A stretch of 32,000 bases of DNA, taken from positions 270,001-302,000 of the forward strand of contig NC_006138.1 of assembly GCF_000025945.1 (NCBI RefSeq), in the 5' to 3' direction. Made by a program: the position numbers and the translations under genes. The notes under the pieces are model-generated. The model was not told the DNA's origin. It ran no database searches and saw only the letters and a program-made list of their open reading frames with translations. Shown here one piece after another: positions 2,258 through 23,990 of the stretch (positions are counted from its first letter, which is position 1; every line of letters begins with the position of its first letter). This DNA is from Desulfotalea psychrophila LSv54 (GTDB lineage: Bacteria; Desulfobacterota; Desulfobulbia; Desulfobulbales; Desulfocapsaceae).

Positions 2258-2267
2258 GCCAGACACC

Positions 2268-6045: not shown

Positions 6046-6058
6046 GGGGTCAACCAGA

Positions 6059-7116: not shown

Positions 7117-7169
7117 GCACATTTTTTTTCGTCTCAAAACAAGGAAACATCTCACCGCAAGACAGGAAA

Positions 7170-8330: not shown

Positions 8331-8338
8331 GGTAGACC

Positions 8339-9478: not shown

Positions 9479-9534
9479 TATTTAATCCACCCTCATCTAT
9501 GCTGCTTACAAAGGGCGACACAGTAAAGGAAAAC

Positions 9535-10974
9535 ATGTCACAGGTAAAAACATTATCCGCGTCCCAGGACTACCCCACCCACGAATGTGGTGTTTGCGGT
9601 ATTTTCGACCATGAAGATGCTGCAAAGCTCACCTACTTCGGCCTCTATGCCCTCCAGCACCGTGGCCAAGAAAGTGCGGGAATTGTTACATCAACCGGCA
9701 AAGAGGTCTTTCTTCACAAAGATATGGGACTTGTGCCCGAGATCTTTACCGAAGATATCCTGCAAGGACTTAAAGGGGACATGTCCATCGGCCATGTACG
9801 CTACTCCACCACCGGTGCGTCCAACTTCACCAATACCCAACCCCTGATGGTTCACCATAAGAACCAGACCCTCTCCGTTGCCCACAATGGCAACCTGGTG
9901 AACTCCACCGAGCTCAGAAACAGGCTCGAGGAGAGTGGTTCTATCTTTCAAACCACCATGGACTCCGAGGCCGTCCTCCATCTCATGGTACGCAACAGCG
10001 GTCCCGATCTCGATAAAACACTGAGCGAGACATTCCGTGCCCTCAAGGGTGCCTATTCCCTGCTCTATATGACCGAGGACACCCTCGTTGCCGTCCGTGA
10101 TCCCGATGGATTTCGCCCCCTCTGCCTTGGTCGCCTGACCACTGGCGGCTGGGTTATAGCCTCTGAAACCTGCGCCCTCGACCTCATCGAGGCCGATTAT
10201 GTACGTGATATCGAGCCGGGTGAAGTTCTTATCATGAAAAGAGGTGAGGAGATGCGCTCCATCTTCCCATGGCCAAAACAGACCCCGCACCACTGCATCT
10301 TTGAGCAGGTCTACTTTGCCCGTCCCGATTCCGATGTCTTTGGTATCAACGTCTATCAATCACGTAAGCAGATGGGTAAGATCCTGGCCCGCGAGGCAAA
10401 GATTGATGCCGATTTCGTTATGCCCTTTCCTGATTCCGGTAACTATGCGGCCATTGGCTATGCACAGGAATCCGGTATTCCCATGGAGATGGGCGTGATC
10501 AGAAATCACTATGTGGGCAGGACATTCATTGAACCAAGCCAGTCCATGCGTGACTTCAACGTCAAGGTCAAGCTCAACCCCGTACGATCTCTCTTGAAGG
10601 GAAAACGGGTTATCATCGTTGAGGATTCTATTATCCGAGGAACAACAGGTAAGAGTCGGGTACGAGCCCTACGCGAGGCGGGGGCCAAAGAGATCCACAT
10701 GGTGGTCAGCTGTCCTCCGACCATGCATGCCTGCTACTATGGCATCGATTTCCCAACCTCATCACAGCTCATTGCCTGCAATAAGAACGTCGAAGAAATC
10801 GCAGAATATCTGGGCCTGGACTCTCTCCACTACCTCAGCCTTGAGGGCATGGTAGAGGCAACGGGTATCCCTAAAGAGCACTACTGTCTGGCCTGTTTCA
10901 ATGGCATTTACCCCATCGCCCCTGATCAAAAATATCACAAAGACGCTCTGGCAACAAAGGTTGTCAAGGGCTAG
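9535..10974 (+). CDS. purF: amidophosphoribosyltransferase
   Basis: Ntn-amidotransferase N-terminus ...HECGVCGIF, a PRPP-binding loop VIIVEDSIIRGTT and C-terminal Cys residues for an FeS cluster. The ATG at 9535 has AAGGA 5-6 nt upstream. The alternative ATG at 9499 adds 12 aa. Confidence 0.9.
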   Translation: MSQVKTLSASQDYPTHECGVCGIFDHEDAAKLTYFGLYALQHRGQESAGIVTSTGKEVFLHKDMGLVPEIFTEDILQGLKGDMSIGHVRYSTTGASNFTNTQPLMVHHKNQTLSVAHNGNLVNSTELRNRLEESGSIFQTTMDSEAVLHLMVRNSGPDLDKTLSETFRALKGAYSLLYMTEDTLVAVRDPDGFRPLCLGRLTTGGWVIASETCALDLIEADYVRDIEPGEVLIMKRGEEMRSIFPWPKQTPHHCIFEQVYFARPDSDVFGINVYQSRKQMGKILAREAKIDADFVMPFPDSGNYAAIGYAQESGIPMEMGVIRNHYVGRTFIEPSQSMRDFNVKVKLNPVRSLLKGKRVIIVEDSIIRGTTGKSRVRALREAGAKEIHMVVSCPPTMHACYYGIDFPTSSQLIACNKNVEEIAEYLGLDSLHYLSLEGMVEATGIPKEHYCLACFNGIYPIAPDQKYHKDALATKVVKG

Positions 10975-11919: not shown

Positions 11920-12126
11920 CTACTTCTTCTTCCTCGGATCATCTCCTGTTTCAAACATCTCAAAGAGATCATAAAAGAGGCGGGTTACAGCACTGTAGTG
12001 AGTGGCAGAGCCTGAGCTGGCATAGGCCTTAGTCAACTCCATGGCCTTAACAAAACTCTCCTGACTCTCCGCATCATCTCTCTTCTTAAGTGCTGCCACG
12101 AGTTTTTCTCCGACCTTCTGCTCCAT
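11920..12126 (-). CDS. hypothetical small acidic helical protein (68 aa)
   Basis: ATG at 12126 preceded by GGGAG (the track TTG start is at 12138). I recognise no motif. Coding is supported only by ORF, RBS and operon context. Confidence 0.4.
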   Translation of the reverse strand: MEQKVGEKLVAALKKRDDAESQESFVKAMELTKAYASSGSATHYSAVTRLFYDLFEMFETGDDPRKKK

Positions 12127-12165
12127 AACGACTCCCAAACCTTTTTGTTTTTTCAGGCCACTATT

Positions 12166-12492
12166 TTATGAAGAGAGTTGCCAGCCATCAAAGCGGGCCG
12201 CAATGCCCGAGAGCTCTGCCTGCCGATAGAGCGCCTGAAAGACCCCCTCCATCCTCGCCAGATGTTCTGTCGAAATTATCCCTGCCCGCTTCAGAACAAT
12301 GATCTGCCAGTCATGCCGGGCGGCATAGCGCCCGCACAGGACCCTACCCTCCTCGTCGGAGGCGGCAAAGACAATCATATTTACCAGACCAGCCTTCCAC
12401 CTCTGAGCCTCAAGGCTCTCAGCACCCGGGCAAACCTCATACTGATACCAGATGGCAGAGAGATTCTCTCCACAATTTTTTCCCGCCTGCAT
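12166..12492 (-). CDS. hypothetical protein (108 aa)
   Basis: ATG at 12492 preceded by GGAGG at about 5-nt spacing. No motif recognised. Confidence 0.45.
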   Translation of the reverse strand: MQAGKNCGENLSAIWYQYEVCPGAESLEAQRWKAGLVNMIVFAASDEEGRVLCGRYAARHDWQIIVLKRAGIISTEHLARMEGVFQALYRQAELSGIAARFDGWQLSS

Positions 12493-12634: not shown

Positions 12635-13651
12635 CTAGAGAAGGGTCTTGGCCCGAACACCAATAAGCTCTGCGGCTATACTAACGGAGATCTCCTCGGG
12701 GGTCTGAGCACCGATGGTCAGACCGATGGGAGAGTGGCAACGATCAATATTCGCCTGAGAAACGCCATCGGCCAACAGGGCGTCGTAGATGGCATTTCGT
12801 TTCTTCTTACTGCCAATCATACCGATATAGCGAGCATCGGTCTTCAGGGCATCTCCCAGAACAGTCAGATCATGGACATGCCCACGGGTAACAATGATGA
12901 TATAGGCATCTTCAGGGATGGAGAGATCGGTACAGCAATCCTCAAAGCTAGCGAGGACACGCACCTCATCAACGGTGGGGAAGCGTTCTACATTGGCAAA
13001 ATCATCTCGATCATCAAGGACCACCGTGCGAAAGCCAAGCATGGCTCCTACCCGGGCAGTAAAGAGGGAGACATGACCGGCACCAAAGATATAGAGCGGA
13101 GCCGGCGGGATAAAGGGTTCGGCAAAGCAGAGCTCCGTTTCGGACTTACTAAAACATGGACTCTCCTTCTCCATGGCCTGTCCGGCCAGGGCAGAGTAGT
13201 CCCCAAGCATCACCTCATGTCCTACGGAGCAAAGAGAATCCCCCTTGGAAAAGGTGGTAGAGAGAACCGCTCTCTCACCCCGGCGCAGCAGGCCATCCAA
13301 CTCCCGATAGGCCAGGGCGCAGGGACCGGTGGACTCAATGGTCTCCAGGAGGACCGAGAGATTACCACCACAGATCATATCTGAGTTAGCGGCCATCTCC
13401 TGGTCCATATCGGTAAAGGTAAGTTCTGCTCGACCATCCTTACAATCCTCAAGCATTCGGCGGGCATCACGACAGGCGATGGCCTCCACGATACCACCGC
13501 CGATGGTACCAATGGCAGTGTGCTGGGCTCGGACAACCATCTTCGCCCCCGAGGAACGCGGGGTAGAGCCGGAGCTCTCTAAAACAGTGGCAAGTACACA
13601 GGGTTCACCCTGCTCAATAAGTTCACACAGGGAACGGACAAAGGCCTTCAT
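12635..13651 (-). CDS. xdhC: XdhC/CoxI-family Moco-insertion accessory protein
   Basis: 338 aa. The N-terminal XdhC_CoxI-type segment reads CVLATVLESSGSTPRSSGAKMVV, and the C-terminal Rossmann-like LYIFGAGHVSL is present. The ATG lies 3 nt after the ligase stop, with GGAGAG upstream. Confidence 0.85.
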   Translation of the reverse strand: MKAFVRSLCELIEQGEPCVLATVLESSGSTPRSSGAKMVVRAQHTAIGTIGGGIVEAIACRDARRMLEDCKDGRAELTFTDMDQEMAANSDMICGGNLSVLLETIESTGPCALAYRELDGLLRRGERAVLSTTFSKGDSLCSVGHEVMLGDYSALAGQAMEKESPCFSKSETELCFAEPFIPPAPLYIFGAGHVSLFTARVGAMLGFRTVVLDDRDDFANVERFPTVDEVRVLASFEDCCTDLSIPEDAYIIIVTRGHVHDLTVLGDALKTDARYIGMIGSKKKRNAIYDALLADGVSQANIDRCHSPIGLTIGAQTPEEISVSIAAELIGVRAKTLL

Positions 13652-13654
13652 AGA

Positions 13655-14956
13655 TTATCTCTCCTCATCTATCTGTAGACAGCGTTTGGCCAAACCGGGA
13701 ACAGCCGGCCTGCCGTCGTTTTTTATCTCAATACTTATTTGCAAGGAACCTAACTCAATGGCCCGGAAAATAGTAGGTATCTTTTTCAGGGCAACTCTTA
13801 TGGCAGACTCAAGGCTACCCCCTCTTCCACAGGCCAGGATTCCCAAGCGACCGGGAGCAAGCGATGCACTAAAATCCGCCAGACCAGCAACGGAGTAGAG
13901 AGCCTCGTTCAACTCATCTATTGTCAGTAAAGGCGAAGAATCTTGGGGCAAACGACGAATCCAGGGATCAAGGCGGCGACTGGTACTGCCACAGGGGCAG
14001 GTGTCAGCCAGAATACGACCCAGATCTCCGCTCCGATAACGAATCAGGGGCATGCCCCATCGCTGCAGGGTGGTCAGCACCAATTCGCCAAATTTACCGT
14101 CGGGCAAGGGCTGGCCTGTCTCTGGATCGGTGATCTCTAAAAATATATCGGCCTCCCGCAGGTGCATACCCGAATGGGGGGCACACTGGACGGCACCGCC
14201 AAGACCGGTTTCAATCATGCCCCAGTGCCGATAGGCTCGGCAGCCCCAGATTCTCTCGATATTATGGACAACGGCGGTGGAGGGGGCATCCCAGCAGAGG
14301 AGGACCGAGGCAATTTGGCCATGCCCAAGACCACGCCTGGCCCACTCACAGGCAAGCAGATTAAGATGGGCGGCAGGCCCAATGACACAATCCGCATCCA
14401 CCTGGAGGAGGTGGTCGACGGCTGCTGCCACCTCATCCACCATTCCATGGGAGACGATGTGCACCCCGCGTCGTTCAAGTCCCTCAACGAGAAGACGACC
14501 CACCCCGCCCGGACGGGCTGTGGGCATAAGGAGAAAGGCGGTCTGCCCGGCCGCAACCAGATGAGCCATGCCCGCATCAAAGTAGTCCACCGTTGCCTGC
14601 AGATCACTCTCCGTATAGAAGATGCGCTTAGGGGCACCGGTGGTCCCGGAACTCTGCACGGTCACCGCCCGGGCAATCTCATCCTGAGAGACACAGAGAA
14701 ACTGCTCCGGGCCAGCCCGAAGGTCATCGGCCGTAACCCGGGGTAGGGCCGAGAATGCCTGAAGGCTATCAAGACTTTCCAGCTCAAGGCCGGCAAAATG
14801 GCGGCGATAAAAGGGGCTCTTCTCCCGGGCATGCAGGATCGTCTTCTGCAGATATTTCAGCTGCCAGGCACTCATCTCCTCTGCCGTGGGCGCGCTGCTC
14901 TCCTCCGACATACCCATACGCCTGAGGAGAAGTCGATCAAGATGGGATAGGGCCAT
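13655..14956 (-). CDS. PaaK/F390-synthetase-like adenylate-forming (acyl-CoA) ligase
   Basis: It has the SSGTTGAPKRIFYT P-loop and PaaK-like length. The track start at 14986 overlaps the radical SAM gene by 50 nt. The ATG at 14956 has GAGGA 7 nt upstream (20-nt overlap). ATG 14917 or 14911 are alternatives. Confidence 0.75.
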   Translation of the reverse strand: MALSHLDRLLLRRMGMSEESSAPTAEEMSAWQLKYLQKTILHAREKSPFYRRHFAGLELESLDSLQAFSALPRVTADDLRAGPEQFLCVSQDEIARAVTVQSSGTTGAPKRIFYTESDLQATVDYFDAGMAHLVAAGQTAFLLMPTARPGGVGRLLVEGLERRGVHIVSHGMVDEVAAAVDHLLQVDADCVIGPAAHLNLLACEWARRGLGHGQIASVLLCWDAPSTAVVHNIERIWGCRAYRHWGMIETGLGGAVQCAPHSGMHLREADIFLEITDPETGQPLPDGKFGELVLTTLQRWGMPLIRYRSGDLGRILADTCPCGSTSRRLDPWIRRLPQDSSPLLTIDELNEALYSVAGLADFSASLAPGRLGILACGRGGSLESAIRVALKKIPTIFRAIELGSLQISIEIKNDGRPAVPGLAKRCLQIDEER

Positions 14957-16286
14957 TGCATTTTCCTCGATACAGGGTCTCGCCATCCATTGAGGTCAGG
15001 TTATAGGCGCAAAAGGGAATGAGGCGACCGTCTGGAGAGACCACATGGATACAGCACCCCCGCAGCCTCTCAAAATCAAGGGTCCAGGCATCCTGAAAGG
15101 CCATGGCCGAAATGGCCAGGCTATGGCTGGCGGCCCGACTGATAAATCTTCCCAAATCATCCTCTAGCGCCCCGGCCATGGGTAAACTCTGCTTGACTCC
15201 GGCCCACTGCCGCTTAACAAAGGATTTAGCCTTATCGGCCCCCTCTCTGGCTGGCCTGGGAGCACAGTCACACTTGCCTCCGGCGGAGAGCTTTGTCAGC
15301 CCACCCTCCTCGGTGACCATATAGTTGCCATTAAAGGAACAGTGAGAGTGTTCACAGCCCGGAGGTTGAAAATCCGCAGCATGAACAGCACCACCGCTCT
15401 GGACCTCAAGCAGGTCCATCAGCTCCGGCAGGGTGATACGCTCTTCATCCCCGGGCGCCTGCGGATATCTGCCAAAATAGCTGACCGGCTGAAAATGAAC
15501 CCCCCGCACATGGGGAGAGTTCTGCACAGCCAGATCAAGGATTGCCCCCAAATTATGATCATTCAAGCCCGGCACCACCACGGGTACCAGAACAATACCA
15601 ATTCCGGCCTGAGAGAGGGCCTCAATAGCTGCCCTCTTTTCTGCCATGAGGGGACGACCTCGCAGACTGCTATAGATGGCATCTTCGGTGCCATCAAACT
15701 GAAGAAAGACGGAATCAAGGCCCGCCTCGGCCAGCCTCTGAGCATAACCCTCTTCACGGGCAATACGCAGACCATTGGTATTGAGCTGAATAAAGGGAAA
15801 GCCCCTCTTTTTAGCCAGGGCAATGAGCTCCGCCAGATCATCACGCATGGTGGGCTCACCACCAGAGAGCTGAATATTACAAAAGCCCGAAGCAAGCTCC
15901 ACCCGCTCCAGCAGTTGAGAAATTTCTGCCTGACTGGGATCGGGAGCAGCCTTCTTGCCAGAGGAGGCAAAACAGACGGGACAACCCAGATCACAGCGCC
16001 AGGTCACCTCAAGAAGAGCAGTGCAGGTGTGCTGACCATGAGCGGCACAGAGGCCACAGTCATAGGGACAGCCCCTGTCCACCGCAGTAAAAGGGGTCTT
16101 AGGCTGGGAAGGAATCTTGGTCCGGGACCACTCCTTAAAGGAAGTACCGGCTCGCCAAACTACCGTTTTAAAAGCACCATGCTCAGGACACTCCTTCAAC
16201 AGATAGGTATTGCCCTCAATAGTTTCATGGTGAGCGGGGATAGCCTTCAAGCAAACGGGACAGACACTTCTAGCGATGGAGTTCAT
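14937..16286 (-). CDS. radical SAM enzyme with N-terminal Zn-ribbon and extra Cys clusters
   Basis: The CX3CX2C motif is RCDLGCPVCF (C98/C102/C105). N-terminal CPVC...CPEHG is followed by GCPYDCGLCAAHGQHTC, and C-terminal Cys pairs occur (GCEHSHC, KCDC, GCC). The ATG overlaps the upstream stop as ATGA. Confidence 0.85.
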   Translation of the reverse strand: MNSIARSVCPVCLKAIPAHHETIEGNTYLLKECPEHGAFKTVVWRAGTSFKEWSRTKIPSQPKTPFTAVDRGCPYDCGLCAAHGQHTCTALLEVTWRCDLGCPVCFASSGKKAAPDPSQAEISQLLERVELASGFCNIQLSGGEPTMRDDLAELIALAKKRGFPFIQLNTNGLRIAREEGYAQRLAEAGLDSVFLQFDGTEDAIYSSLRGRPLMAEKRAAIEALSQAGIGIVLVPVVVPGLNDHNLGAILDLAVQNSPHVRGVHFQPVSYFGRYPQAPGDEERITLPELMDLLEVQSGGAVHAADFQPPGCEHSHCSFNGNYMVTEEGGLTKLSAGGKCDCAPRPAREGADKAKSFVKRQWAGVKQSLPMAGALEDDLGRFISRAASHSLAISAMAFQDAWTLDFERLRGCCIHVVSPDGRLIPFCAYNLTSMDGETLYRGKCNGPIPS

Positions 16287-16738
16287 AAAAGTTCACGCCC
16301 CTCTGTCGGATCACAGCCATTATCAAGCAAGATCTCCCGGACCCGGCCATGGGCATCAGCTAACAGGGAGCCACAGAGAGAGGTATTCATCTGCGGCGTA
16401 CTACCATCAAGAATATCAAGGCAGCGGATACCTGCATGGGCGCTGGTTCTGCTTACAAACCACTGAGCAAACTCTTCCAGCATAAGGGCAAGTTTACCAT
16501 CGGCCTGCTCCATGGCAAGCCCCTTACCTGCATAAAGGCCCAAAAGCAGATTGGCTCCGGCATAGACTCCGCAGGGGCCGGTACCGTCTCCCATGCCATT
16601 ACAGAAACCCGAGGCCGCCCGGACCAGATCCGGATTTTCCCGATCCATCTCATCCAGGGCCAGCAGGACCATGATCTGGGTACAGCAATAACCCTGCGCA
16701 CCTAACTCCATAACTTGCATTCCAATATCATCTAACAT
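16283..16738 (-). CDS. C_GCAxxG_C_C-family putative redox protein
   Basis: 151 aa with N-terminal GYCCTQ, central GPCGVYAG (a GCAxxG-type motif) and two distal Cys (IRCLD, SLCGS). The ATG abuts the upstream TAG, with AGGAGG inside the upstream gene's last codons. Confidence 0.75.
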   Translation of the reverse strand: MLDDIGMQVMELGAQGYCCTQIMVLLALDEMDRENPDLVRAASGFCNGMGDGTGPCGVYAGANLLLGLYAGKGLAMEQADGKLALMLEEFAQWFVSRTSAHAGIRCLDILDGSTPQMNTSLCGSLLADAHGRVREILLDNGCDPTEGRELL

Positions 16739-17386
16739 CTACTCCTCCTTTTTTTGCCCAACCAATAAATAGTAACCGAGCTGAGGCTGACCGCAGTTGC
16801 ACGCCTGTTCCTCTCCACCGGCAAAGAGAAGCCGGGCCGCCAGTTGATGAAGGAGACGGGAATGATCCTCTACCAAAAGCAGGCGAAAGCCCGCCGCCTC
16901 TACAATCGCCTCTGTTTGCGCCCGGGGCAGGGCCCTGACCGCGCAGGAGGTCCCCCCCGCAGGGTCTCCATGACCACAGAGATCGGAGAGGAGAAGAAAA
17001 GCACCGGGTTGCAGCACCCTGTTAAACTCTGCCAGGCCCTGCTCCGCATCCGGGAAGAGGGAGAGGACACATTCACAAAAGAGGGCCCGAAAAGAGGAGG
17101 AGAGAAAGGGAAGATCATCCCCCCAGGCCTGGACCTGCCCCGTACCACGACCACGCTTAAGCTGAGTCCAGGAGGGCTCTACCCCATGGGCCATGGCTCC
17201 ATAACGCGCGCGCAGACGCTCGACGGTGGCACCAAGGCCACTGCCCACATCAAGAACGGGCCAACCAGGAGCCAGCCCCACAAAGTCCGCGGCCCTATCT
17301 GTTATGGTAAACCCGCCCGGGCGCAGGGTATCCCCGGCAGCCAGGCGAAGCAGTGGCTGTTCCCAGAGAGGTACTGACTGCACCAC
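16739..17386 (-). CDS. class I SAM-dependent methyltransferase
   Basis: Motif I is VLDVGSGLGATVERL and the length is 215 aa. The GTG start lies 1 nt after the upstream stop, with GGAGGA 8 nt upstream. Confidence 0.8.
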   Translation of the reverse strand: MVQSVPLWEQPLLRLAAGDTLRPGGFTITDRAADFVGLAPGWPVLDVGSGLGATVERLRARYGAMAHGVEPSWTQLKRGRGTGQVQAWGDDLPFLSSSFRALFCECVLSLFPDAEQGLAEFNRVLQPGAFLLLSDLCGHGDPAGGTSCAVRALPRAQTEAIVEAAGFRLLLVEDHSRLLHQLAARLLFAGGEEQACNCGQPQLGYYLLVGQKKEE

Positions 17387-17387
17387 C

Positions 17388-17603
17388 CTACTTATCCTCC
17401 AGCAGATGCTCTACCTGATTCATCTTGCCACCGGCCAGACTCTCGGAGATAAAAACCATATTACACTGGGGACATACCGGCAGGGCAACGTTAAAGAGAG
17501 AGTCGAGATACTCTAACTCCACCGGTTTATAGACCAGATCTACCCCACAGGCCGAACATTTCCAACCAGCCGCATCGGCTTCCGCTACCTTAATTAAACT
17601 CAT
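17388..17603 (-). CDS. small CxxC...CxxC zinc-ribbon protein (71 aa)
   Basis: It has KCSACG and CPQC pairs 25 residues apart. The ATG overlaps the upstream TGA (ATGA), so it appears translationally coupled. Confidence 0.6.
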   Translation of the reverse strand: MSLIKVAEADAAGWKCSACGVDLVYKPVELEYLDSLFNVALPVCPQCNMVFISESLAGGKMNQVEHLLEDK

Positions 17604-19846
17604 GCCTGACCTCCTCTGATACGCATACGATGACTCCAGGTATTATGGACAAGATAGCCCTCAGCCAGCCTCTCAAACTCCACCCAATAGGTGACCAGGG
17701 TGGGTCGATAGGAGGCGAGCAGATGACCTGTCTCACTGTGAACAAAGGCCTTGCCGCTCTCCTCGACCTGAAGCAGGACCTTTTGCATGTCCGATTTTAG
17801 AATTCGACGCTCCTCCATGATCCTCTCCGCCTCCTCGGTAAAGAAGACCTGCACCTGAGAAAAACGCTCCACCCTGCTGGTATCCTCCTCGGCCCAGAGA
17901 TCTTGCAAGAGCCCCTCCTTCAGATGGGCACGATTCTCTCGACGGGCAGAAAAGCCCGGAGAGGGACGTCCGGCAGGATCGCTCTCACTTGGAAAAATAA
18001 GGTCATAAAAGTGCATGGCCCGTTTACCATTTTTGACCAGCATATCACGGCACATGGCACAGTAGGTGACAAAATCCTCCTCCACCGCTGCCCCACGACG
18101 AACAGCCACAGCCTTTGCCAGATCAGGATTAGCATCGGAGAGGAGACCACCATAGCCACAACACTCGGTATGCTTGCCGGTCAGCCGAGGTTCCACCACC
18201 TCGATAGAGAGGTCCTGCAAGAGGGCACGCACATCTCCCTGCAGAAGGGGGTCATGCCGGGCTGAACAGGGATCGTTGATTGCCAGGGTAGCGGCCTCAA
18301 CCCTTGCCCCTGCGGGCAGGCCAAGGGCACGAAGAATGGTCCAGTGAGAAATTATCTCCGCCTCGGGGATACCAGCCCGTAGGGTAGTAAGACAGGTGGG
18401 GCAGGAGACAATAATTTGGGGAGAGCCGAGTTCCTGCCACTGCTCCCGAATCAGGGCCATGGACTCATCCATCAGGGCCTTACGTCCGGACCACTCGGCG
18501 GGTGCACCACAGCAGGAGAGCATAAGACCAACGCTACCCAAACGATCACGCAGATCCTGATAGGCCCGCTCCACCGCCCCAGGATTTGAAGCAGTCAGCT
18601 GACAGCCGGGAAAAAAAAGATACTCACTGCTCACCATGCCCGGGGCATGACGAACCAAGGCGCACTTCTTGCCATTGGCAAAGGCCATGTCGCGCAGGGC
18701 AAATTCATGGGCTGCCGGTGGCATCTTATTCTTTTCCACCATCCCCCGCCGGATAGTCAGACAAAAATCAGCCATGGAAAACTCTTCGGGACAGAGGGTA
18801 TCGCAGAGACCGCAGAGCATACAGGAGTTAACCATGGTATTGGCCTGACGAGTCCCCATAACAATGGCATCATTGTTATAGGCCTGACGGGCATAGACCT
18901 TGGGATAATATTTATAGTGTTTCAGATACTCACAGTTCTTAACGCACTCCATGCACTCGCACTGCAGACAGCGTTTGGCCTCGGCCCGAATCTCTTCATC
19001 GCTGTAACTTGCCTGAACAATAAGGGCGGGCACCGATTCAACATCCTCGACATTGGTATAGAGCCTTGTCTGATAGGGGCCCTCCAGCTCACGGCCTGCC
19101 ACCATGGAGACACCTTGGGTAAAGCGTACAATGGAGTTGGCGGCACGACGACCGGTGGCCGCCTGGAATATAGCCGAATCCTCAGCACAGGGAGAGGCAA
19201 AGAGACCCGGACGTAGGGTGCCCAAGGTCAGACTATCCGCTTCACCCCAAGAGGAAAGCTCCGAGGGCAGACTGTCTGAATCGACAAAGACGGCATCTGC
19301 CTCGGCAAGAAGGGCGTCGAGCAAAACCTGATCAATGCTGACATCGTGAAAACTCACCCCCAGACGGGCAAGATTTTTTATCTCAGCGGCGAGAACACCC
19401 TCGGGCAGGGAAAGAGCCAAAACCTTACCAGGCTCACCGTAGAGCCTTACCGCAAAACCTCTACGGGCCAATTCCCAGGCAGCGCAGAGACCGGTCAGTC
19501 CTGCCCCCACCACTGCCACCACCTTACCACGGGCGGGCAGAGGCCTGGGCGGATCAACAGCCCGGGCATTTTCAGCACAAAATTCCTCCAGGGAATCCAT
19601 GGCAATACTGCCACCCAAACCCTGACGAATACAATCATTTTTACAGGGACCATGACAGAGTCGTGCCAGGACACCCGGCAGGGGTAGGGTTTTGGCAAGC
19701 ACCGTCCAGGCCTTGTCCCAACGCCCCTGCCCCATCAAGGAGCAGAAACTACGCACATCCACATGAAGGGGGCAGGCTGCGGTACAACGAGGCACCTCTT
19801 CCTGCACACATTTTGCTTCCCATTCTCTGAGTTCACTCTGTTCCAT
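17600..19846 (-). CDS. multidomain flavo-iron-sulfur oxidoreductase (GltD-like N-terminus + Rossmann + 2x[4Fe-4S] + two CCG domains + unknown C-terminal domain)
   Basis: Motifs seen are CTAACPLH...CHGPCKNDC, VAVVGAGLTGLCAAWELARRG, CLQCECMECVKNC, CMLCGLCDTLCPE, FFPGCQL...SCCGAP and ECCGYGG. The track start at 19897 is TTG. The ATG at 19846 has GGGAGGGAG upstream. Confidence 0.8.
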   Translation of the reverse strand: MEQSELREWEAKCVQEEVPRCTAACPLHVDVRSFCSLMGQGRWDKAWTVLAKTLPLPGVLARLCHGPCKNDCIRQGLGGSIAMDSLEEFCAENARAVDPPRPLPARGKVVAVVGAGLTGLCAAWELARRGFAVRLYGEPGKVLALSLPEGVLAAEIKNLARLGVSFHDVSIDQVLLDALLAEADAVFVDSDSLPSELSSWGEADSLTLGTLRPGLFASPCAEDSAIFQAATGRRAANSIVRFTQGVSMVAGRELEGPYQTRLYTNVEDVESVPALIVQASYSDEEIRAEAKRCLQCECMECVKNCEYLKHYKYYPKVYARQAYNNDAIVMGTRQANTMVNSCMLCGLCDTLCPEEFSMADFCLTIRRGMVEKNKMPPAAHEFALRDMAFANGKKCALVRHAPGMVSSEYLFFPGCQLTASNPGAVERAYQDLRDRLGSVGLMLSCCGAPAEWSGRKALMDESMALIREQWQELGSPQIIVSCPTCLTTLRAGIPEAEIISHWTILRALGLPAGARVEAATLAINDPCSARHDPLLQGDVRALLQDLSIEVVEPRLTGKHTECCGYGGLLSDANPDLAKAVAVRRGAAVEEDFVTYCAMCRDMLVKNGKRAMHFYDLIFPSESDPAGRPSPGFSARRENRAHLKEGLLQDLWAEEDTSRVERFSQVQVFFTEEAERIMEERRILKSDMQKVLLQVEESGKAFVHSETGHLLASYRPTLVTYWVEFERLAEGYLVHNTWSHRMRIRGGQA

Positions 19847-19868
19847 AGTCTCCCTCCCACAAATAAGT

Positions 19869-19909
19869 ACAGGTAGTGACCTGTGCCAAATGCACAAACC
19901 ACTACCTGT
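19869..19909 (-). promoter_or_regulatory. intercistronic composite hairpin between aor and the accessory operon (attenuator, 3'-stabiliser or operator candidate)
   Basis: Perfect 10-bp inverted repeat ACAGGTAGTG (19869-19878) / CACTACCTGT (19900-19909) encloses a second 5-bp stem TGTGC/GCACA with a 5-nt loop. On the minus strand it is followed by ACTTATTTGTGGGAGGGAGACT-ATG. Confidence 0.45.
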
Positions 19910-20003
19910 CTTTTAACACCAGCTGAGGACCTCTCATAAACCTCTGAAAAGCCCTCAAATAGGGAAGCAGCAAATTAATTATCTACCTCCCTCTGCCTAT
20001 AAT

Positions 20004-22724
20004 CTACTTAGCCTGCAGACCTGCAAGAATCTTCTCAGGCAGGGCAGGAAGCTTAGTAATACGTACGCCACAGGCATTGTAGATACCATTAATAATGGCC
20101 GCATGAGGCGCAGTAAGTGGCAGCTCGCCACAACCAGATGCGCCAAATGGACCCTCGGGACGGGCAGTCTCGATATACTCAACTTCAATATCATCAGGGA
20201 TGTCCTTGATGTATGGAAAGCCAGCACCTTTCATGGTGGAGTGCTTCTTGATATCTTCGTAGTCCTCGGTGAGGGCCAGGCCAATACCCTGGGCAAGTCC
20301 ACCGTACATCTGACCATCAACGATCAATCTATTGTTGATCTTACCTACATCGGCAATCAAAGTCATCTTCTCAGCGGAAGCTTTACCGGTTTTCATATCC
20401 ACTGCCATCTCGGCAAGGAACATACCGTACATATAACAGGCAAAAGGATTACCCTGACCATTGGCATCACACTCGGTGGCAGGAGCGGTCCACTTGCCAT
20501 TATAACGAACAGGTTTTTCTGCCTCAACCATCTCGGCATAGGTCGAGAAGGTGTCCGCAGTTTTGCGCATAGCTTCAACAAGGGCATCACAACCTGCCTT
20601 AATAGCGCGACCAATAATAACCTGAGAACGGCTACCACCAGCAGGGCCACCATTGCCACAGGTACTGGTATCGTTCATAACCAGTTTAATCTGATCAGGG
20701 GTGAGACCAAGAGGACGAAGTGCCTCGTGAGCCGTACCCAAAACGCCCATATCAGCGCCCTGACCATGGTCATGCCAACAGGCAAAAACGGTTACGGTAC
20801 CATTTTCATTGAGCTCAACGTCGATTTCAGCGGTATCAGGGCCGTCAAGACCGGAACCATAAATACCGAGGGAGATACCAACACCGCGCTTGATCTCGTC
20901 GGTGGAGTTAGCAGCAACACGTTTCTTAGCTGCCTCATATTTTGGTCGCATGGTATCAAAGATCTCAGGAAGTGAATACACCTCAGGTTCCTGACCAGTT
21001 GGGGTAGTAGAACCCTTGCGATAGATATTCTTATAACGAAGATCAAAGGGGTCCATACCGATCTTCTCAGCAAGCTCATCCATCAATACCTCAGATGGAA
21101 ACTCTGTTTCAGGGGCGCCATAACCACGGAAGGCAGAGCCCCAGGCATGGTTGGTGGCAACACAACGACCATCACCGCGAATATTAGCAATATCGTAACC
21201 TGCACCAATGTACTGGGCACCACGGAGGGTGAGCAGATCACCGAACTCAGAGTAAGGACCATGATCAACAGTCCAATCAGTCTCCATTCCGAGAAGTTTA
21301 CCATCGTTATCGGCAGCCATACGCACGTTGGTGAAAAATGGAGAACGCTTACCGGTATAGGTTTGCTGTTGTTTCCAGGTGTAGTTCAAGAAAACAGCCT
21401 TGCCAGTGGCAAGACAGGCGGCACCAACCAGGGCTTCCATGGTTGGGGAGAACTTGTAACCAAAGGTACCCCCGGTGGCATTCTGAACCATAACGATGTT
21501 CTCAGGCTCAACACCAAGACCTGGAGCGATCATATAGAGATGGAGATGGAGACCAATGGATTTAGTGTGAATACAGAGTTTTCCCTCATCGTTCATAAAG
21601 GCAAAACCAACATCCGGCTCAAGAGGCATATGTGGTTGACGACCAACATAAAAATCATCCTCAACAACATGAGCTGCTGCCTCAAAGATAGGAGCAGTCT
21701 CGGCACCCTTGGCAACGTGTTGCTCAAAGTAGATATTAGGAGTTCCAGGATGAATCTCGATGGCATCATCTGCCATGGCAGCAGGAGCACTCATGTACTC
21801 AGGCAGACGTTCGAGCTCAACCTTAACCTTGGCAGCAGCAGCCTTGGCATGTTTATCGGTATCGGCACAGACGATGGCAATGGCATCACCGTACTGAAAG
21901 ACCTTCTCATCACAGAGGATAGGACGATCCCAACCATCACCCTTATTGGTGGGGAAGGTGATCAGGCCGGTAATACGGTTCTTACCTTTAACGTCCTTAT
22001 GGGTAACAATCTTCTCAACACCGGGCATTTTCTCTGCTTCGCTGGTGTCGATGGAGAGAATCTTAGCATGGGAAACCTCGGCTTGAACCAGGGCAAGTTG
22101 CAGGGTTCCAGCAGGCATCTTCAGGCCAAGGTCAGCACCAAAATCGAGGGTACCGGTTACCTTAGAGACTGAACTTGGACGTGGATATCTGGTGCCCCAG
22201 ATGCGACCATCCTCAGGAATCTTAAAGTACAGATCATTAATATCCTTATCACCACGCATAACCGCGGCAGCATCGCGAACGGCATCAACGAGTTGCTTGT
22301 AGCCTGTACAGCGACATGCATTGCGGTTTTTTTGGAACCAGTCACGAACATCATCACGGCTAGGGTTAGGATTGGATTCAATCAAGGCATAGGTAGAAAC
22401 GATGAATCCAGGTGTACAGAAACCACACTGGGCGCCACTATGGGCAATCCAGGCAACTTGAATAGGGTGGAGGTGATTTGGAGTTCCAATTCCCTCTACG
22501 GTGGTAATTACTGCATCGTTTTGCATTCGTTTCATCTTCATGGTACAAGATCGAACCAACTTGCCATCAAGAATAATAGTACAGGTACCACATTGGCCAG
22601 TACCACAACCAATTTTCACACTGGTAAGGCCCAGATTATCACGCAGTACATTGGCCAGAGATTCGTCCTTATCACAGACCACAGACTTGGCGATACCGTT
22701 AACCTGGAGATTAAGCTTAATCAT
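20004..22724 (-). CDS. mop: molybdenum aldehyde oxidoreductase, Mop type (2x[2Fe-2S] + Mo-pterin domains, no FAD domain)
   Basis: By my recollection it is collinear over its full length with Desulfovibrio gigas MOP. Motifs present are GCGTGQCGTCT, CGFCTPGF, CRCTGY, GGTFGYK and GASGCGELPL. The ATG at 22724 (MIKLNLQVNG) is preceded by AGGAGG and gives 906 aa. The track start at 22775 is further upstream. Confidence 0.92.
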   Translation of the reverse strand: MIKLNLQVNGIAKSVVCDKDESLANVLRDNLGLTSVKIGCGTGQCGTCTIILDGKLVRSCTMKMKRMQNDAVITTVEGIGTPNHLHPIQVAWIAHSGAQCGFCTPGFIVSTYALIESNPNPSRDDVRDWFQKNRNACRCTGYKQLVDAVRDAAAVMRGDKDINDLYFKIPEDGRIWGTRYPRPSSVSKVTGTLDFGADLGLKMPAGTLQLALVQAEVSHAKILSIDTSEAEKMPGVEKIVTHKDVKGKNRITGLITFPTNKGDGWDRPILCDEKVFQYGDAIAIVCADTDKHAKAAAAKVKVELERLPEYMSAPAAMADDAIEIHPGTPNIYFEQHVAKGAETAPIFEAAAHVVEDDFYVGRQPHMPLEPDVGFAFMNDEGKLCIHTKSIGLHLHLYMIAPGLGVEPENIVMVQNATGGTFGYKFSPTMEALVGAACLATGKAVFLNYTWKQQQTYTGKRSPFFTNVRMAADNDGKLLGMETDWTVDHGPYSEFGDLLTLRGAQYIGAGYDIANIRGDGRCVATNHAWGSAFRGYGAPETEFPSEVLMDELAEKIGMDPFDLRYKNIYRKGSTTPTGQEPEVYSLPEIFDTMRPKYEAAKKRVAANSTDEIKRGVGISLGIYGSGLDGPDTAEIDVELNENGTVTVFACWHDHGQGADMGVLGTAHEALRPLGLTPDQIKLVMNDTSTCGNGGPAGGSRSQVIIGRAIKAGCDALVEAMRKTADTFSTYAEMVEAEKPVRYNGKWTAPATECDANGQGNPFACYMYGMFLAEMAVDMKTGKASAEKMTLIADVGKINNRLIVDGQMYGGLAQGIGLALTEDYEDIKKHSTMKGAGFPYIKDIPDDIEVEYIETARPEGPFGASGCGELPLTAPHAAIINGIYNACGVRITKLPALPEKILAGLQAK

Positions 22725-22799
22725 GAATTGTATTCCTCCTAAGTGTTTCATTGCCTTGCATGTTACGACCATCAAGATGAGGCACGTAACTCAAAAATA

Positions 22800-23816
22800 C
22801 TACTTTCCAAAGGGGCAGGTGGGATAATGGCACACTTCACATGTTGCACAAAAACCACCATGTCCCATGGCTACAATATCTTCACGGGTAACCTCAACCC
22901 CTGCCAGCAGACGGGGCACAACCAGATCAAAAATACTGGCCCGATAGTACATAACGCAGCCTGGGAGTCCCAGAATCGGGATACCGTCCCTGACTGCGAG
23001 CATAAACATCACGCCAGGAAAAGTGGGAGAACCATATGTAATAACCTCGGCCCCGGTGGCTCGGATTGCGGTGGGGGTCTGGTCGTCGGGATCAACGGAC
23101 ATACCGCCTGTCACCACCACCATTTCAGCGCCTTCAGCAATGGCATCTAAAATCTCATCACGGGTCATGATGGGATCATCTGAGCTGAACCGTTGCTCCA
23201 TAACCGTGGAACCGAGTTTTGCAAATTTTTCACGAATAACAGGGCCGAACTTATCCTGAATACGACCGTGATAGACCTCGCTGCCCGTGGTTACCACACC
23301 AACTTTATGGTGGATAAAGGGACGGATGCCGACCACGTAGGGATATTCAGCACATATTGCCTCCACACGCTCAATCTTCTCCTCATCTATAACAAGGGGA
23401 ACAACCCTGGTGCCGGCAACGGCTCGGGCTTCGGTCACCTGCTGGCCACTGTGCATGGTGGCAAGCACGACCTCCTCAATGGAGTTAATACGATTGAGGG
23501 CTTCAACATTGATATCAAGCAGACCGGGACTGGCCTCAAAGTTCACTCGACCTTCGCTGACGTCGGAAAGGGTAATACCGGGACCAAAGGCTGCCTTGGC
23601 GATACGCTCGGCTGCCTCGTTTTCATGAATGCGGCCTTTTTCCATATCCAATACAAAAATATGTTCTTTGCCAATTTCAAGCAGGGTGGGAATATCTTCT
23701 TCAGTTACAACATGACCCTTCTTAAAGGCAGGTCCCTTGCACTCTCCGGGAACAATTCTGGTCATATCATGGCATAGAACCATGCCAATAGCTTCTTGCA
23801 CAGGAACAGTATTCAT
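22800..23816 (-). CDS. molybdopterin-binding (MoCF_biosynth / MoaB-Mog-like domain) protein with Cys-rich C-terminus
   Basis: The central segment VGVVTTGSEVYHGRIQDKFGPVI...VVTGGMSVDPDD is typical of the MoCF-binding fold. The C-terminal tail is FCATCEVCHYPTCPFGK. The track start at 23912 is TTG. The ATG at 23816 (MNTVPVQEA) has GGAGAG upstream. Confidence 0.7.
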   Translation of the reverse strand: MNTVPVQEAIGMVLCHDMTRIVPGECKGPAFKKGHVVTEEDIPTLLEIGKEHIFVLDMEKGRIHENEAAERIAKAAFGPGITLSDVSEGRVNFEASPGLLDINVEALNRINSIEEVVLATMHSGQQVTEARAVAGTRVVPLVIDEEKIERVEAICAEYPYVVGIRPFIHHKVGVVTTGSEVYHGRIQDKFGPVIREKFAKLGSTVMEQRFSSDDPIMTRDEILDAIAEGAEMVVVTGGMSVDPDDQTPTAIRATGAEVITYGSPTFPGVMFMLAVRDGIPILGLPGCVMYYRASIFDLVVPRLLAGVEVTREDIVAMGHGGFCATCEVCHYPTCPFGK

Positions 23817-23990
23817 AGGTAATATCTCTCCATCTTCTATCCAACCATCAACGACAATTCTGTACCCGACAAATCTGACATACAAATGCAGTGAAAAAAG
23901 CACAGAGTTCAATACATTTTACCTGTAAAAATGCAGTAAAAAATTCGCCTGCTAAAAAAGCAAGATTCATTCTTATTTTGTCGAGGTAAA

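What the first reader, a model, noticed from the sequence alone, without database searches (positions are those of the whole stretch)
14937..16286. Zn-ribbon radical SAM enzyme with extra Cys clusters next to a pterin enzyme: possible pterin or cofactor modifier
Seen in sequence: CPVC...CPEHG (residues 9-36), then GCPYDCGLCAAHGQHTC (72-88), then the radical SAM CX3CX2C at 98-105. Further Cys pairs occur near the C-terminus (GCEHSHC, KCDC, GCC).

Established, by my recollection: this N-terminal layout resembles the family containing MJ0619, the 7,8-dihydro-6-hydroxymethylpterin dimethyltransferase of methanopterin biosynthesis. It also resembles the archaeal tetraether lipid synthase. Both are cobalamin-independent radical SAM enzymes that form C-C bonds or methylate carbon.

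Inference: placement between a methyltransferase/C_GCAxxG pair and an adenylating ligase, in an operon ending in XdhC behind a molybdopterin enzyme, suggests a candidate for modifying the pyranopterin or another prosthetic group or peptide of Mop. I also recall, unverified, that related proteins are named as (seleno)proteins in PGAP. Here the ORF is uninterrupted, with no in-frame TGA.
Basis: partly seen in the sequence, partly recalled or inferred. Interest (0 to 1): 0.7.

Follow-up and report, generated by a model that had tools for sequence, protein, structure and literature searches.

The report
Known TrsS radical-SAM gene beside MOP
This gene encodes TrsS, an already named but functionally unsolved radical-SAM enzyme related to the archaeal tetraether-lipid synthase; it always travels with a molybdenum aldehyde oxidoreductase and a fixed set of helper genes, and its pterin-modifying role is possible but unproven.

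Summary

It is not new. The window is Desulfotalea psychrophila, and RefSeq already names this protein "radical SAM (seleno)protein TrsS" (NF045646, 682 bits against a cutoff of 490). Its neighbours are the curated DVU_1552-1559 families.

The closest solved relative is GDGT-MAS/MJ0619 (E 1e-84, TM 0.80). All four metal sites and the SAM contacts are kept. Tyr459 is replaced and the C-terminal domain is shorter.

The gene order Mop-Diclust-DUF7479-MTase-C_GCAxxG-TrsS-ligase-XdhC holds across at least five phyla, including D. gigas. The native D. gigas MOP crystal structure at 1.28 Å shows plain MCD, which argues against pterin modification.

Selenocysteine in orthologs aligns with Cys311 (GCEHSHC), not with KCDC or GCC.

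Natural fusions join TrsS to the methyltransferase, the ligase and a MocA-like NTP transferase.

The function remains unknown. The best reading is GDGT-MAS-like C-H activation inside a MOP-associated accessory module.

The parts
14937..16286 (-). trsS: radical SAM (seleno)protein TrsS, Cys form, 449 aa
   Evidence: NF045646 scores 681.9 bits against a cutoff of 490, over the full length. It is 100% identical to the RefSeq D. psychrophila TrsS. The AF2 model has pLDDT 85.5, and its best fold match is GDGT-MAS at TM 0.80.
16152..16274 (-). N-terminal rubredoxin-like zinc-ribbon domain (residues 5-45; C9, C12, C33, H36)
   Evidence: Pfam PF23545 matches at 3.1e-16. The motif is the same C9X2C12X20C33X2H36 that binds the rubredoxin iron of GDGT-MAS. 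All four residues are invariant in 81 TrsS sequences.
16023..16070 (-). N-terminal auxiliary [4Fe-4S] site (C73, C77, C80, H83; also the TrsS-specific invariant C88)
   Evidence: These residues align with the GDGT-MAS [Fe4S4]N ligands C73/C77/C80 plus His. They are invariant in 81 of 81 sequences.
15972..15995 (-). Radical SAM cluster motif C98-x3-C102-x2-C105
   Evidence: Pfam Radical_SAM covers residues 94-253. The motif is invariant. The GGE motif lies at residues 142-144.
15339..15356 (-). C311-EHSH-C316. C311 is the position occupied by selenocysteine in orthologs. C316 is the invariant Cys that aligns (weakly) with a GDGT-MAS cysteine and is presumed to be a C-terminal cluster ligand.
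   Evidence: An in-frame TGA sits at this column in L092 and in about 22 metagenome loci, some of them inside canonical Mop loci. Those proteins pass the TrsS cutoff.
15264..15272 (-). C339-D-C341 cysteine loop (low-confidence, flexible region)
   Evidence: pLDDT is below 50 at residues 336-340. The loop is present in Cys311 and Gly311 forms and absent from Sec311 forms.
15009..15104 (-). C-terminal auxiliary-cluster segment: M395 (aligns with the labile ligand Met439 of GDGT-MAS), C411, C412, V415 (in place of Tyr459), C426
   Evidence: See the alignment to 7TOL, the ligand roles, and the conservation figures.
13655..14986 (-). DVU_1553-family PaaK-like AMP-dependent ligase. Its start overlaps the end of trsS.
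   Evidence: NF045666 scores 432.9 bits. The PDB PaaK entry 4R1L matches at E 5e-36. The gene lies downstream of TrsS in 70 of 73 loci. It is fused to TrsS in P0245, P0250 and P0303.
12635..13651 (-). XdhC-family aldehyde oxidoreductase maturation factor
   Evidence: NF045664 scores 406.8 bits, and Pfam finds XdhC_CoxI plus XdhC_C.
16283..16738 (-). DVU_1555-family C_GCAxxG_C_C protein. It overlaps the trsS start by 4 nt.
   Evidence: NF045669 scores 158.3 bits. The gene lies upstream of TrsS in 62 of 65 loci.
16739..17386 (-). DVU_1556-family class I SAM methyltransferase
   Evidence: NF045667 scores 200 bits. It is fused to TrsS in P0241, P0275 and P0264.
17388..17603 (-). DUF7479 zinc-ribbon protein, 71 aa
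   Evidence: PF24292 matches at 4.2e-26. The protein is present in D. gigas and in metagenome loci. It is fused to Diclust in L091. A DUF7479-like motif occurs in the TrsS fusion P0273.
17600..19897 (-). Pyridine nucleotide-disulfide oxidoreductase/dicluster/CCG-domain protein ('Diclust'). The likely true start is Met at 19846.
   Evidence: NF045663 scores 987.7 bits. Pfam finds Fer4_20, NAD_binding, Fer4_17 and 2x CCG. The start is discussed.
19869..19909 (-). Hairpin with an 18-bp stem in the Mop-Diclust spacer
   Evidence: Found by the terminator-like scan. Its function was not tested.
20004..22775 (-). Mop: MCD-dependent aldehyde oxidoreductase. The likely true start is Met at 22724.
   Evidence: NF045668 scores 1682.8 bits. 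PDB entries 1DGJ and 1SIJ score 1462 and 1412 bits.
22800..23912 (-). MoCF_biosynth (MogA/MoeA-type molybdopterin-binding domain) protein
   Evidence: PF00994 matches at 1.6e-23. The gene is present upstream of Mop in 30 of 80 loci and in D. gigas.

Best explanation
Shown: the ORF is the Cys form of TrsS (NCBIfam NF045646), a bacterial sister family of the archaeal tetraether synthase Tes/GDGT-MAS. [quoted passage not shown]

Shown: it is one gene of a module that is conserved and probably co-translated. The order is Mop - Hdr/GltD-like FeS flavoprotein - DUF7479 - methyltransferase - C_GCAxxG protein - TrsS - PaaK-like ligase - XdhC, often followed by a MocA-like NTP transferase/HD protein.

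Inferred mechanism:
1. Like GDGT-MAS, TrsS cleaves SAM reductively and uses the 5'-deoxyadenosyl radical to pull a hydrogen from an unactivated aliphatic C-H.
2. The substrate radical is handled at the C-terminal auxiliary cluster, with help from Cys311 (selenocysteine in some orthologs) and the neighbouring CxC loop.
3. The substrate is probably a carboxylate activated by the adjacent adenylating enzyme, and it is later methylated by the adjacent methyltransferase.

Inferred role: the product is most likely a cofactor-like molecule or prosthetic group needed by the MOP/FeS-flavoprotein aldehyde-oxidising system, or a transient step in assembling that system. It is probably not a stable change to the MCD seen in mature MOP. 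The substrate has not been identified.
For: Family:
- NF045646 scores 681.9 against a cutoff of 490, and RefSeq uses the same name.

Fold and metal sites:
- 7TOL matches at E 1.3e-84 and TM 0.80.
- Ligands C9/C12/C33/H36, C73/C77/C80/H83 and C98/C102/C105 are invariant, as are M395 (equivalent to Met439) and C316/C411/C426.
- The equivalents of the GDGT-MAS SAM contacts are conserved: F106, R209, Q266, S269 and R273.

Module:
- In 65 loci with at least 7 kb upstream, Mop is present in 63, Diclust in 63, CGCA in 62 and MTase in 59.
- In 73 loci with at least 3 kb downstream, the ligase is present in 70 and XdhC in 53.
- These loci span Desulfobacterota, Bacillota, Chloroflexota, Campylobacterota and Actinomycetes.
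- In the window, genes from Diclust to XdhC have overlapping or abutting start and stop codons.

Fusions:
- TrsS is found fused to the methyltransferase, the ligase, a DVU_1551/MocA-like NTP transferase (with or without an HD domain), and DUF5714.

Catalytic chalcogen:
- Sec aligns with C311 in about 23 loci, including canonical Mop loci.
- Residue 311 co-varies with the CC loop.

Against a stable pterin change:
- D. gigas has the same locus, and its native MOP shows plain MCD at 1.28 Å.
Against: - No experiment exists for any TrsS. The primary description (Haft & Tolstoy 2025) could not be read here.
- The substrate, the role of the ligase and the order of steps are all inference.
- Cys311 is replaced by Gly, Ala or Trp in 8 of 81 orthologs (one more aligns to a gap), so it is not universally essential.
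- Tyr459, a candidate catalytic residue of GDGT-MAS, is Val/Thr/Ile in TrsS. The region that forms the second lipid pocket is about 40 residues shorter. The chemistry may therefore differ from C-C coupling.
- The MocA-like fusions and the XdhC/MoCF flanks fit a direct action on Moco equally well.
- Purified D. gigas MOP works in vitro without any of these proteins and has flavodoxin as its putative partner.
Confidence: 0.55

Rival explanations
1. TrsS, together with the methyltransferase and the ligase, acts directly on the pyranopterin cofactor (MPT or MCD held on XdhC or the MoCF protein) or on the Mop polypeptide. On this view it is a dedicated Mop maturase.
For: - The module sits between Mop and the Moco chaperone XdhC, is flanked by a MoCF_biosynth protein, and in 48 of 80 loci is followed by a MocA-like NTP transferase/HD gene.
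- TrsS is fused to that NTP transferase in P0247, P0248 and P0285. The P0248 fusion lies between the CGCA gene and the next gene of the module.
- Linkage to Mop is near-obligate, at 63 of 65 loci.
Against: - D. gigas has the full module, yet its native MOP at 1.28 Å shows ordinary MCD with well-defined pterin rings, and no modified residues are reported.
- The homology-based pterin lead is void. The MJ0619 pterin methylase activity was not reproducible, and the active-site tunnel is hydrophobic.
- A TrsS subgroup that passes the family cutoff has the ligase and DUF7479 but no Mop or Moco genes in the available flanks.
Confidence: 0.2
2. TrsS is a bacterial membrane-spanning-lipid (brGDGT or diabolic-acid type) synthase. 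It would couple fatty-acyl tails as Tes couples phytanyl tails. This is the role proposed for bacterial Tes homologs in general.
For: - TrsS is a close homolog of GDGT-MAS and keeps all four metal sites.
- Zeng et al. 2022 proposed this role for the 456 bacterial Tes homologs they found (PMC8941075).
- Later surveys count bacterial Tes homologs in Chloroflexota and Desulfobacterota as possible brGDGT markers (PMC11868695).
Against: - TrsS scores below the Tes equivalog cutoff (349.3 against 450) and above the TrsS cutoff.
- Tyr459 is lost and the second lipid-pocket region is shortened.
- The gene is locked into a Mop/XdhC operon with no lipid-synthesis genes.
- Known diabolic- and iso-diabolic-acid producers lack Tes homologs and use Mss instead (PMC13159169).
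- As far as I know, Desulfovibrio and Desulfotalea have not been reported to make brGDGTs. This rests on my own knowledge and was not tested.
Confidence: 0.04
3. TrsS is a catabolic enzyme. Mop oxidises an aldehyde to an acid, the PaaK-like ligase converts the acid to an acyl-AMP or acyl-CoA, and TrsS together with the methyltransferase transforms that thioester. The module would be a degradation or detoxification pathway rather than a maturation system.
For: - The ligase is most similar to phenylacetate-CoA ligases.
- The sequence aldehyde oxidoreductase followed by aryl-acid CoA ligase is a known motif of anaerobic aromatic catabolism. This rests on my own knowledge.
- An Fe-type alcohol dehydrogenase gene precedes Mop in 9 of 80 loci.
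Against: - Gene order and translational coupling are rigid across five phyla, and XdhC and MocA come after the ligase. That pattern is more typical of an assembly line or a complex.
- The fusions to a MocA-like domain are hard to explain on this view.
- No downstream beta-oxidation or ring-reduction genes are conserved in the loci.
Confidence: 0.13

Closest known systems
TrsS, radical SAM (seleno)protein (NCBIfam NF045646; Haft & Tolstoy 2025, mSystems e0141724, listed in PMC13188914)
   Same: The match covers the full length and scores above the curated cutoff. The genomic neighbourhood is the same (DVU_1552-1559 families). The Cys at residue 311 lies where orthologs have Sec. RefSeq already gives this exact protein the same name.
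   Different: Nothing material differs. This copy is the Cys form, and its locus lacks the DVU_1551-type NTP transferase/HD gene that follows XdhC in 48 of 80 loci.
GDGT-MAS / Tes (MJ0619; PDB 7TOL, 7TOM), archaeal tetraether lipid synthase
   Same: The four-domain architecture matches, and the ligand positions are identical: C9X2C12X20C33X2H36, C73/C77/C80+His, CX3CX2C, and the labile Met. The SAM-contact residues are conserved. TM-score is 0.80 and identity is 34%.
   Different: - TrsS scores below the Tes HMM cutoff (349 against 450).
- Tyr459 is replaced by Val415.
- About 40 residues are missing between residues 309 and 381, the region corresponding to the amphipathic-helix lipid pocket.
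- TrsS has an extra Cys/Sec311, a CxC loop and an invariant C88.
- The host is bacterial and has no archaeol.
- The gene lies in an operon with a molybdoenzyme, not with lipid genes.
HMPTM annotation of MJ0619 (7,8-dihydro-6-hydroxymethylpterin dimethyltransferase; Allen et al. 2014). Pfam still names the zinc ribbon after it.
   Same: Only the sequence family is shared. It is the same protein as GDGT-MAS.
   Different: The pterin methylase activity was not reproducible, and the structure argues against a pterin substrate (PMC9433317). It gives no functional precedent for TrsS.
Comparative-genomics 'maturase' radical SAM proteins next to pterin enzymes, for example TIGR04317, the tungsten cofactor oxidoreductase radical SAM maturase
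   Same: In both cases a radical SAM gene is genomically tied to a pterin-dependent aldehyde oxidoreductase and its function is unproven.
   Different: It belongs to a different radical-SAM subfamily (SPASM type) and pairs with a different oxidoreductase family (tungsten AOR). The window protein scores only 55 bits against a cutoff of 380.

Membership tests
TrsS (NF045646) | Whole-protein HMM score at or above the curated cutoff of 490 bits, with full-length coverage | tested here: met
   681.9 bits, residues 5-440 against model positions 3-441 of 441.
TrsS (NF045646) | A Cys at the column where selenoprotein members carry Sec | tested here: met
   C311 aligns with an in-frame TGA in L092 and about 22 metagenome loci. 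Those proteins score 531-696 bits on NF045646.
TrsS (NF045646) | Neighbourhood of DVU_1551-1559-type genes (Mop, Diclust, MTase, C_GCAxxG, AMP ligase, XdhC, NTP transferase) | tested here: met
   All are present in the window except the NTP transferase. The same order is found in 80 genomes and in D. gigas.
Tes / GDGT-MAS (NF045702) | HMM score at or above the curated cutoff of 450 bits | tested here: not met
   349.3 bits. The match covers only residues 6-323, against model positions 3-323 of 486.
Tes / GDGT-MAS (NF045702) | Rubredoxin iron site plus three [4Fe-4S] sites, with the published ligand pattern and the labile Met | tested here: met
   Shown by the alignment to 7TOL and by invariance in 81 sequences.
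Tes / GDGT-MAS (NF045702) | Tyr459, strictly conserved in 1000 archaeal homologs and positioned next to the substrate's terminal carbon | tested here: not met
   It aligns with Val415. Across the TrsS family this column is V in 57, T in 10 and I in 7 of 81 sequences.
Tes / GDGT-MAS (NF045702) | A long hydrophobic tunnel and a second, amphipathic-helix lipid pocket | tested here: inconclusive
   The corresponding region (residues 309-381) is about 40 residues shorter and is only weakly alignable. The model's coordinates could not be inspected.
Tes / GDGT-MAS (NF045702) | Activity: coupling of the terminal carbons of two saturated lipid chains | not testable with these tools
   This needs in vitro assay or lipidomics.
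Radical SAM superfamily (PF04055) | CX3CX2C cluster motif, GGE SAM-binding motif and a partial TIM barrel | tested here: met
   C98/C102/C105 and G142-G143-E144 are present. Pfam matches at 7.6e-24 and the AF2 fold agrees.
HMPTM pterin methylase (class D radical SAM methylase, as first annotated) | Methylation of C7 and C9 of a pterin substrate | not testable with these tools
   The founding assignment was itself not reproducible (PMC9433317). Only the Pfam zinc-ribbon name survives.

The most novel reading that the evidence does not exclude
TrsS, the PaaK-like ligase and DUF7479 form a self-contained unit found both with and without Mop. This unit would use GDGT-MAS-type activation of an unactivated alkyl C-H, with carbon-sulfur or carbon-selenium capture at Cys/Sec311 and the auxiliary cluster.

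Its product would be a previously unknown thiol- or alkyl-based cofactor or protein-bound prosthetic group. That group might be lipoate-like and serve as a substrate for the Hdr-type CCG domains of the neighbouring FeS flavoprotein. Alternatively it might be a transient adduct on Moco before insertion. Either way, it would couple the classic Desulfovibrio MOP to its real physiological electron pathway.
Probability: 0.2. Interest if true: 0.85.

Novelty: already known. Interest (0 to 1): 0.4.

Why it matters
TrsS is a widespread enzyme with no known reaction. Relatives were found in at least 581 GTDB species-representative genomes. It sits next to one of the best-studied molybdoenzymes, D. gigas MOP, whose physiological role and electron partner are still uncertain.

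Solving TrsS could reveal new radical chemistry derived from the only known enzymatic sp3-sp3 lipid coupling. It could also explain why a Sec/Cys sits beside an auxiliary cluster.

There is a practical consequence too. TrsS passes the BLAST thresholds used to count 'bacterial Tes homologs' as candidate brGDGT producers in Chloroflexota and Desulfobacterota. Its fixed Mop context suggests that many of those hits are not lipid synthases. This matters for palaeoclimate biomarker source attribution.

Tried and rejected
1. Sec in the N-terminal region. Several database homologs lack the zinc ribbon or start at residues 90-92. Their contigs show intact upstream reading frames or contig ends, so these are start-codon miscalls and not TGA.

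2. Sec near the C-terminus. TGA codons just after the conserved LYR motif are ordinary stops. The conserved 'PLDxWI' peptide that follows in frame is the N-terminus of the ligase.

3. None of the 80 genome loci or the 120 closest proteins contains Sec.

4. A SECIS-like fold after the TGA of L092 is no more stable than shuffled sequence (z = -0.35). It was not used as evidence.

5. The primary TrsS paper (PMC12013261) and the DVU155x literature are not in the held library. The supplements of two selenoproteome papers are not held either.

6. Homology between DUF5714 (fused to TrsS) and the C_GCAxxG protein is not significant by BLASTP (E 0.79).

7. C88 and C136 were considered as possible Sec or catalytic sites. 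C136 varies (50 of 81) and lies at the bottom of the barrel by topology. C88 is invariant but was never seen as TGA.

8. An exact-sequence look-up of the window protein's own contig found nothing.


Full report
**Observation**

The ORF at 14937-16286 is real and lies on the minus strand. It has an ATG start, encodes 449 codons, ends in TGA and has no internal stop.

- C9/C12/C33/H36
- C73/C77/C80 ... C88
- C98/C102/C105
- C311/C316
- C339/C341
- C411/C412

Pfam finds Radical_SAM (7.6e-24) and the 'HMPTM' zinc ribbon (3.1e-16).

The neighbours are as described, and all lie on the minus strand:
- MoCF_biosynth protein
- Mop-type aldehyde oxidoreductase
- a 765-aa NAD(P)/FAD, dicluster and CCG-domain protein ('Diclust')
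- a class I methyltransferase
- a C_GCAxxG_C_C protein
- the radical SAM gene
- a PaaK-like AMP ligase
- XdhC

From Diclust to XdhC the genes overlap or abut. A 157-nt spacer holding an 18-bp hairpin separates Mop from Diclust.

**Identity**

NCBIfam places the protein in NF045646, 'radical SAM (seleno)protein TrsS'. It scores 681.9 bits against a cutoff of 490. It falls below the Tes cutoff (349.3 against 450).

The neighbours hit the consecutive curated models NF045663-NF045669. These cover Mop, 'diclust_near_Sec', the DVU_1556 MTase, the DVU_1555 C_GCAxxG protein, the DVU_1553 ligase and the XdhC-related AOR maturation factor.

A 100% identical database entry is RefSeq's TrsS of Desulfotalea psychrophila, on a 3.52-Mb chromosome.

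A 2026 review lists TrsS among the selenoprotein families introduced by Haft & Tolstoy 2025 (reference). That paper is not in the held library. The entity is therefore already named and curated, but I found no report of any experimental work on it in the held library.

**Relation to MJ0619/Tes**

The best solved relative is GDGT-MAS, the product of mj0619. phmmer gives E 1.3e-84 over residues 6-308 and 382-430.

An AlphaFold model (pLDDT 85.5, pTM 0.89) matches 7TOL/7TOM with TM 0.80/0.74 and 34% identity. The next fold is MoaA at TM 0.42.

Lloyd et al. 2022 report the ligand sets C9X2C12X20C33X2H36 (rubredoxin iron), C73/C77/C80 plus His, CX3CX2C, and a C-terminal cluster with the labile Met439. 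TrsS has these at the same residue numbers, and Met439 aligns with Met395.

All of these residues are invariant in 81 TrsS sequences. The same is true of the SAM-contact equivalents R209, Q266 and R273; S269 is kept in 79 of 81 and F106 in 76 of 81.

The differences are:
- Tyr459, strictly conserved in archaea and 4.2 Å from the substrate carbon, aligns with Val415.
- The stretch corresponding to the second lipid pocket is about 40 residues shorter.
- TrsS adds an invariant C88, Cys311 and a CC/CxC loop at residues 339-341.

The same paper states that the pterin-methylase annotation of MJ0619 could not be corroborated, and that a bulky hydrophilic pterin is unlikely to fit the tunnel.

**Gene neighbourhood**

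In the 80 best loci the gene order is essentially fixed.

| Gene | Present | Loci with enough flank |
|---|---|---|
| Mop | 63 | 65 (at least 7 kb upstream) |
| Diclust | 63 | 65 |
| C_GCAxxG | 62 | 65 |
| Methyltransferase | 59 | 65 |
| Ligase | 70 | 73 (at least 3 kb downstream) |
| XdhC | 53 | 73 |

All but one of these neighbours lie on the TrsS strand.

The hosts include Desulfobacterota, Clostridia and other Bacillota, Anaerolineae, Sulfurospirillum and an actinomycete.

In 48 of 80 loci a MobA/MocA-like NTP transferase with an HD domain (NF045665, DVU_1551 family) follows XdhC. The window has two orphan ORFs at that position instead. One locus, from Clostridium ragsdalei, has TrsS alone.

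**The D. gigas test**

The window's Mop is a close relative and apparent ortholog of the crystallised D. desulfuricans and D. gigas enzymes (1462 and 1412 bits).

I rebuilt the D. gigas MOP sequence from the alignment and recovered its database entry. Its chromosome has this order: MoCF_biosynth - mop - nitroreductase - Diclust - DUF7479 - MTase - C_GCAxxG - TrsS - ligase - XdhC. The TrsS there scores 632 bits.

The D. gigas MOP structure, refined to 1.28 Å, shows MCD with 'amazing definition ... for the pterin rings', and the enzyme needs no sulfido ligand (PMC10223205). That the crystals came from enzyme purified from D. gigas itself rests on my own knowledge, not. On that basis an organism that carries the full module makes MOP with an ordinary cofactor. 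This weighs against a stable pterin modification. It does not exclude a transient or traceless step.

**Selenocysteine position**

None of the 80 loci or the 120 closest proteins has an in-frame TGA. The truncated homologs proved to be start miscalls or contig ends.

In an exhaustive search of cluster representatives, one 327-aa protein ended at '...NFIPPG'. Its contig continues in frame after a TGA with 'EESHCSF ... GMAFQDAW ... CCIHV ... PFCAYY'. The TGA therefore occupies the column of Cys311.

A degenerate DNA pattern with TGA at that codon returned 54 metagenome stretches. About 22 of them are TrsS genes with the radical-SAM motif upstream and/or MxFxD downstream.
- One group ('PPGUENALCSFHGNF') lies in canonical loci. 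L132 has MoCF-Mop-Diclust-DUF7479-MTase-CGCA-TrsS. L098 and L113 run on to XdhC. These proteins score 692-696 bits on NF045646.
- A second, more divergent group ('PPGUEESHCSFSALSVLRED') scores 531-556 bits. Its neighbours are DUF7479, a small protein homologous to the last 80 residues of Diclust, a PaaK-like ligase, a GATase_7 protein and unknown ORFs. No Mop, MTase or C_GCAxxG gene appears in the flanks.

There is co-variation with the cysteine loop:
- Cys311 forms carry two or three loop cysteines (70 of 72).
- Gly311 forms mostly carry three.
- Sec311 forms have lost the loop cysteines and carry a Cys next to Met395 instead.

This pattern is descriptive and is not corrected for phylogeny.

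**Fusions**

Cluster representatives include the following fusions, and the TrsS parts tested pass the family cutoff:
- methyltransferase-TrsS and TrsS-methyltransferase
- TrsS-ligase
- NTP_transf_3 (with or without HD)-TrsS
- TrsS-zinc ribbon-DUF5714

One NTP-transferase fusion sits between the C_GCAxxG gene and the next gene of the module. DUF7479 is fused to Diclust in another locus. These fusions indicate a single functional unit centred on TrsS.

**Interpretation**

Shown:
- family membership
- the GDGT-MAS-like metal architecture
- the obligate module
- the Sec/Cys311 site

Inferred:
- TrsS performs 5'-dA radical hydrogen abstraction from an unactivated carbon.
- The radical is processed at the C-terminal cluster with a nearby chalcogen.
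- The ligase activates the substrate and the methyltransferase finishes it.
- The product serves the MOP/Diclust system.

Direct pterin modification remains a live rival at about 0.2. The MocA-like fusions support it. The D. gigas structure and the Mop-less subgroup count against it.

The brGDGT-synthase idea for bacterial Tes homologs is unlikely for this subfamily, given its context, the lost Tyr, and the finding that known diabolic-acid producers use Mss.

A catabolic reading (aldehyde to acid to acyl-CoA to radical step) is possible. It fits the rigid synteny and the fusions poorly.

**Verdict**

Its interpretation is partly right: the family relationship, the seleno-name and the operon logic all hold.

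It is not new, because the gene, the family and the neighbourhood are already curated and published. The biochemical function is open and experimentally approachable. The Sec site, the loop co-variation, the fusions and the D. gigas linkage assembled here narrow the hypotheses.

Interest is moderate.

Noticed in passing
window 15264-15356 (-); loci L092-L143: Residue 311 co-varies with the cysteine loop at 339-341 across the TrsS family. Cys311 forms have a CC or CxC loop. Gly311 forms mostly have CCC. Sec311 forms have lost the loop cysteines and gained a Cys next to Met395, as in GDGT-MAS 'SCMHF'. The pattern is not corrected for phylogeny.
   Followed up: partly
L092, L099, L100, L126, L140 and about 12 further metagenome loci: A divergent Sec-containing TrsS subgroup scores 531-556 bits. 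It sits with DUF7479, a ~135-aa protein homologous to the C-terminal 80 residues of Diclust, a PaaK-like ligase, a GATase_7 protein and unknown ORFs. No Mop or Moco genes appear in the flank. This suggests that the core unit is TrsS plus ligase plus DUF7479.
   Followed up: partly
window 19869-19909 (-): A hairpin with an 18-bp stem lies in the 157-nt spacer between the Mop stop codon and the likely Diclust start. It could be an attenuator or a transcript-stabilising element that sets the ratio of Mop to accessory proteins.
   Followed up: no
window 12635-23912 compared with the flanks: TrsS, Mop and MoCF of D. psychrophila (Desulfobulbales) are 74-83% identical to Pseudodesulfovibrio proteins but only 53-56% identical to Desulfobulbales TrsS. 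The accessory genes have GC 0.55-0.58, against 0.47-0.53 in the flanks. Lateral acquisition of the module is possible.
   Followed up: partly
window 11920-12492 (-): Two orphan ORFs (108 aa and 72 aa) with no Pfam hit lie directly after XdhC. In 48 of 80 other genomes this position holds a DVU_1551-type MocA-like NTP transferase/HD gene.
   Followed up: partly
L019, L024, L004, L041, L066 and others (flanks of TrsS loci): Several recurrent but non-universal neighbours appear in the TrsS loci: an Fe-type alcohol dehydrogenase upstream of Mop (9 of 80), molybdate-type ABC transporter parts, DUF364, and sigma-54 response regulators. D. gigas has a nitroreductase gene inserted between mop and Diclust.
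   Followed up: partly
window 78-6496 (-), 7029-10974 (+), 26998-31757: The rest of the window looks like ordinary housekeeping genes. There is a menaquinone operon (menE/C/B/D/F-like plus a thioesterase), then ispDF, an M20 peptidase, a purF-like amidotransferase and a GGDEF response regulator. Further along are pcm, htpG and a protoporphyrinogen-oxidase-like flavoprotein.
   Followed up: partly
L066 (Clostridium ragsdalei P11): A TrsS scoring 654.7 bits occurs with none of the usual neighbours within 9-10 kb on either side. It is the only such exception among the 80 loci.
   Followed up: no
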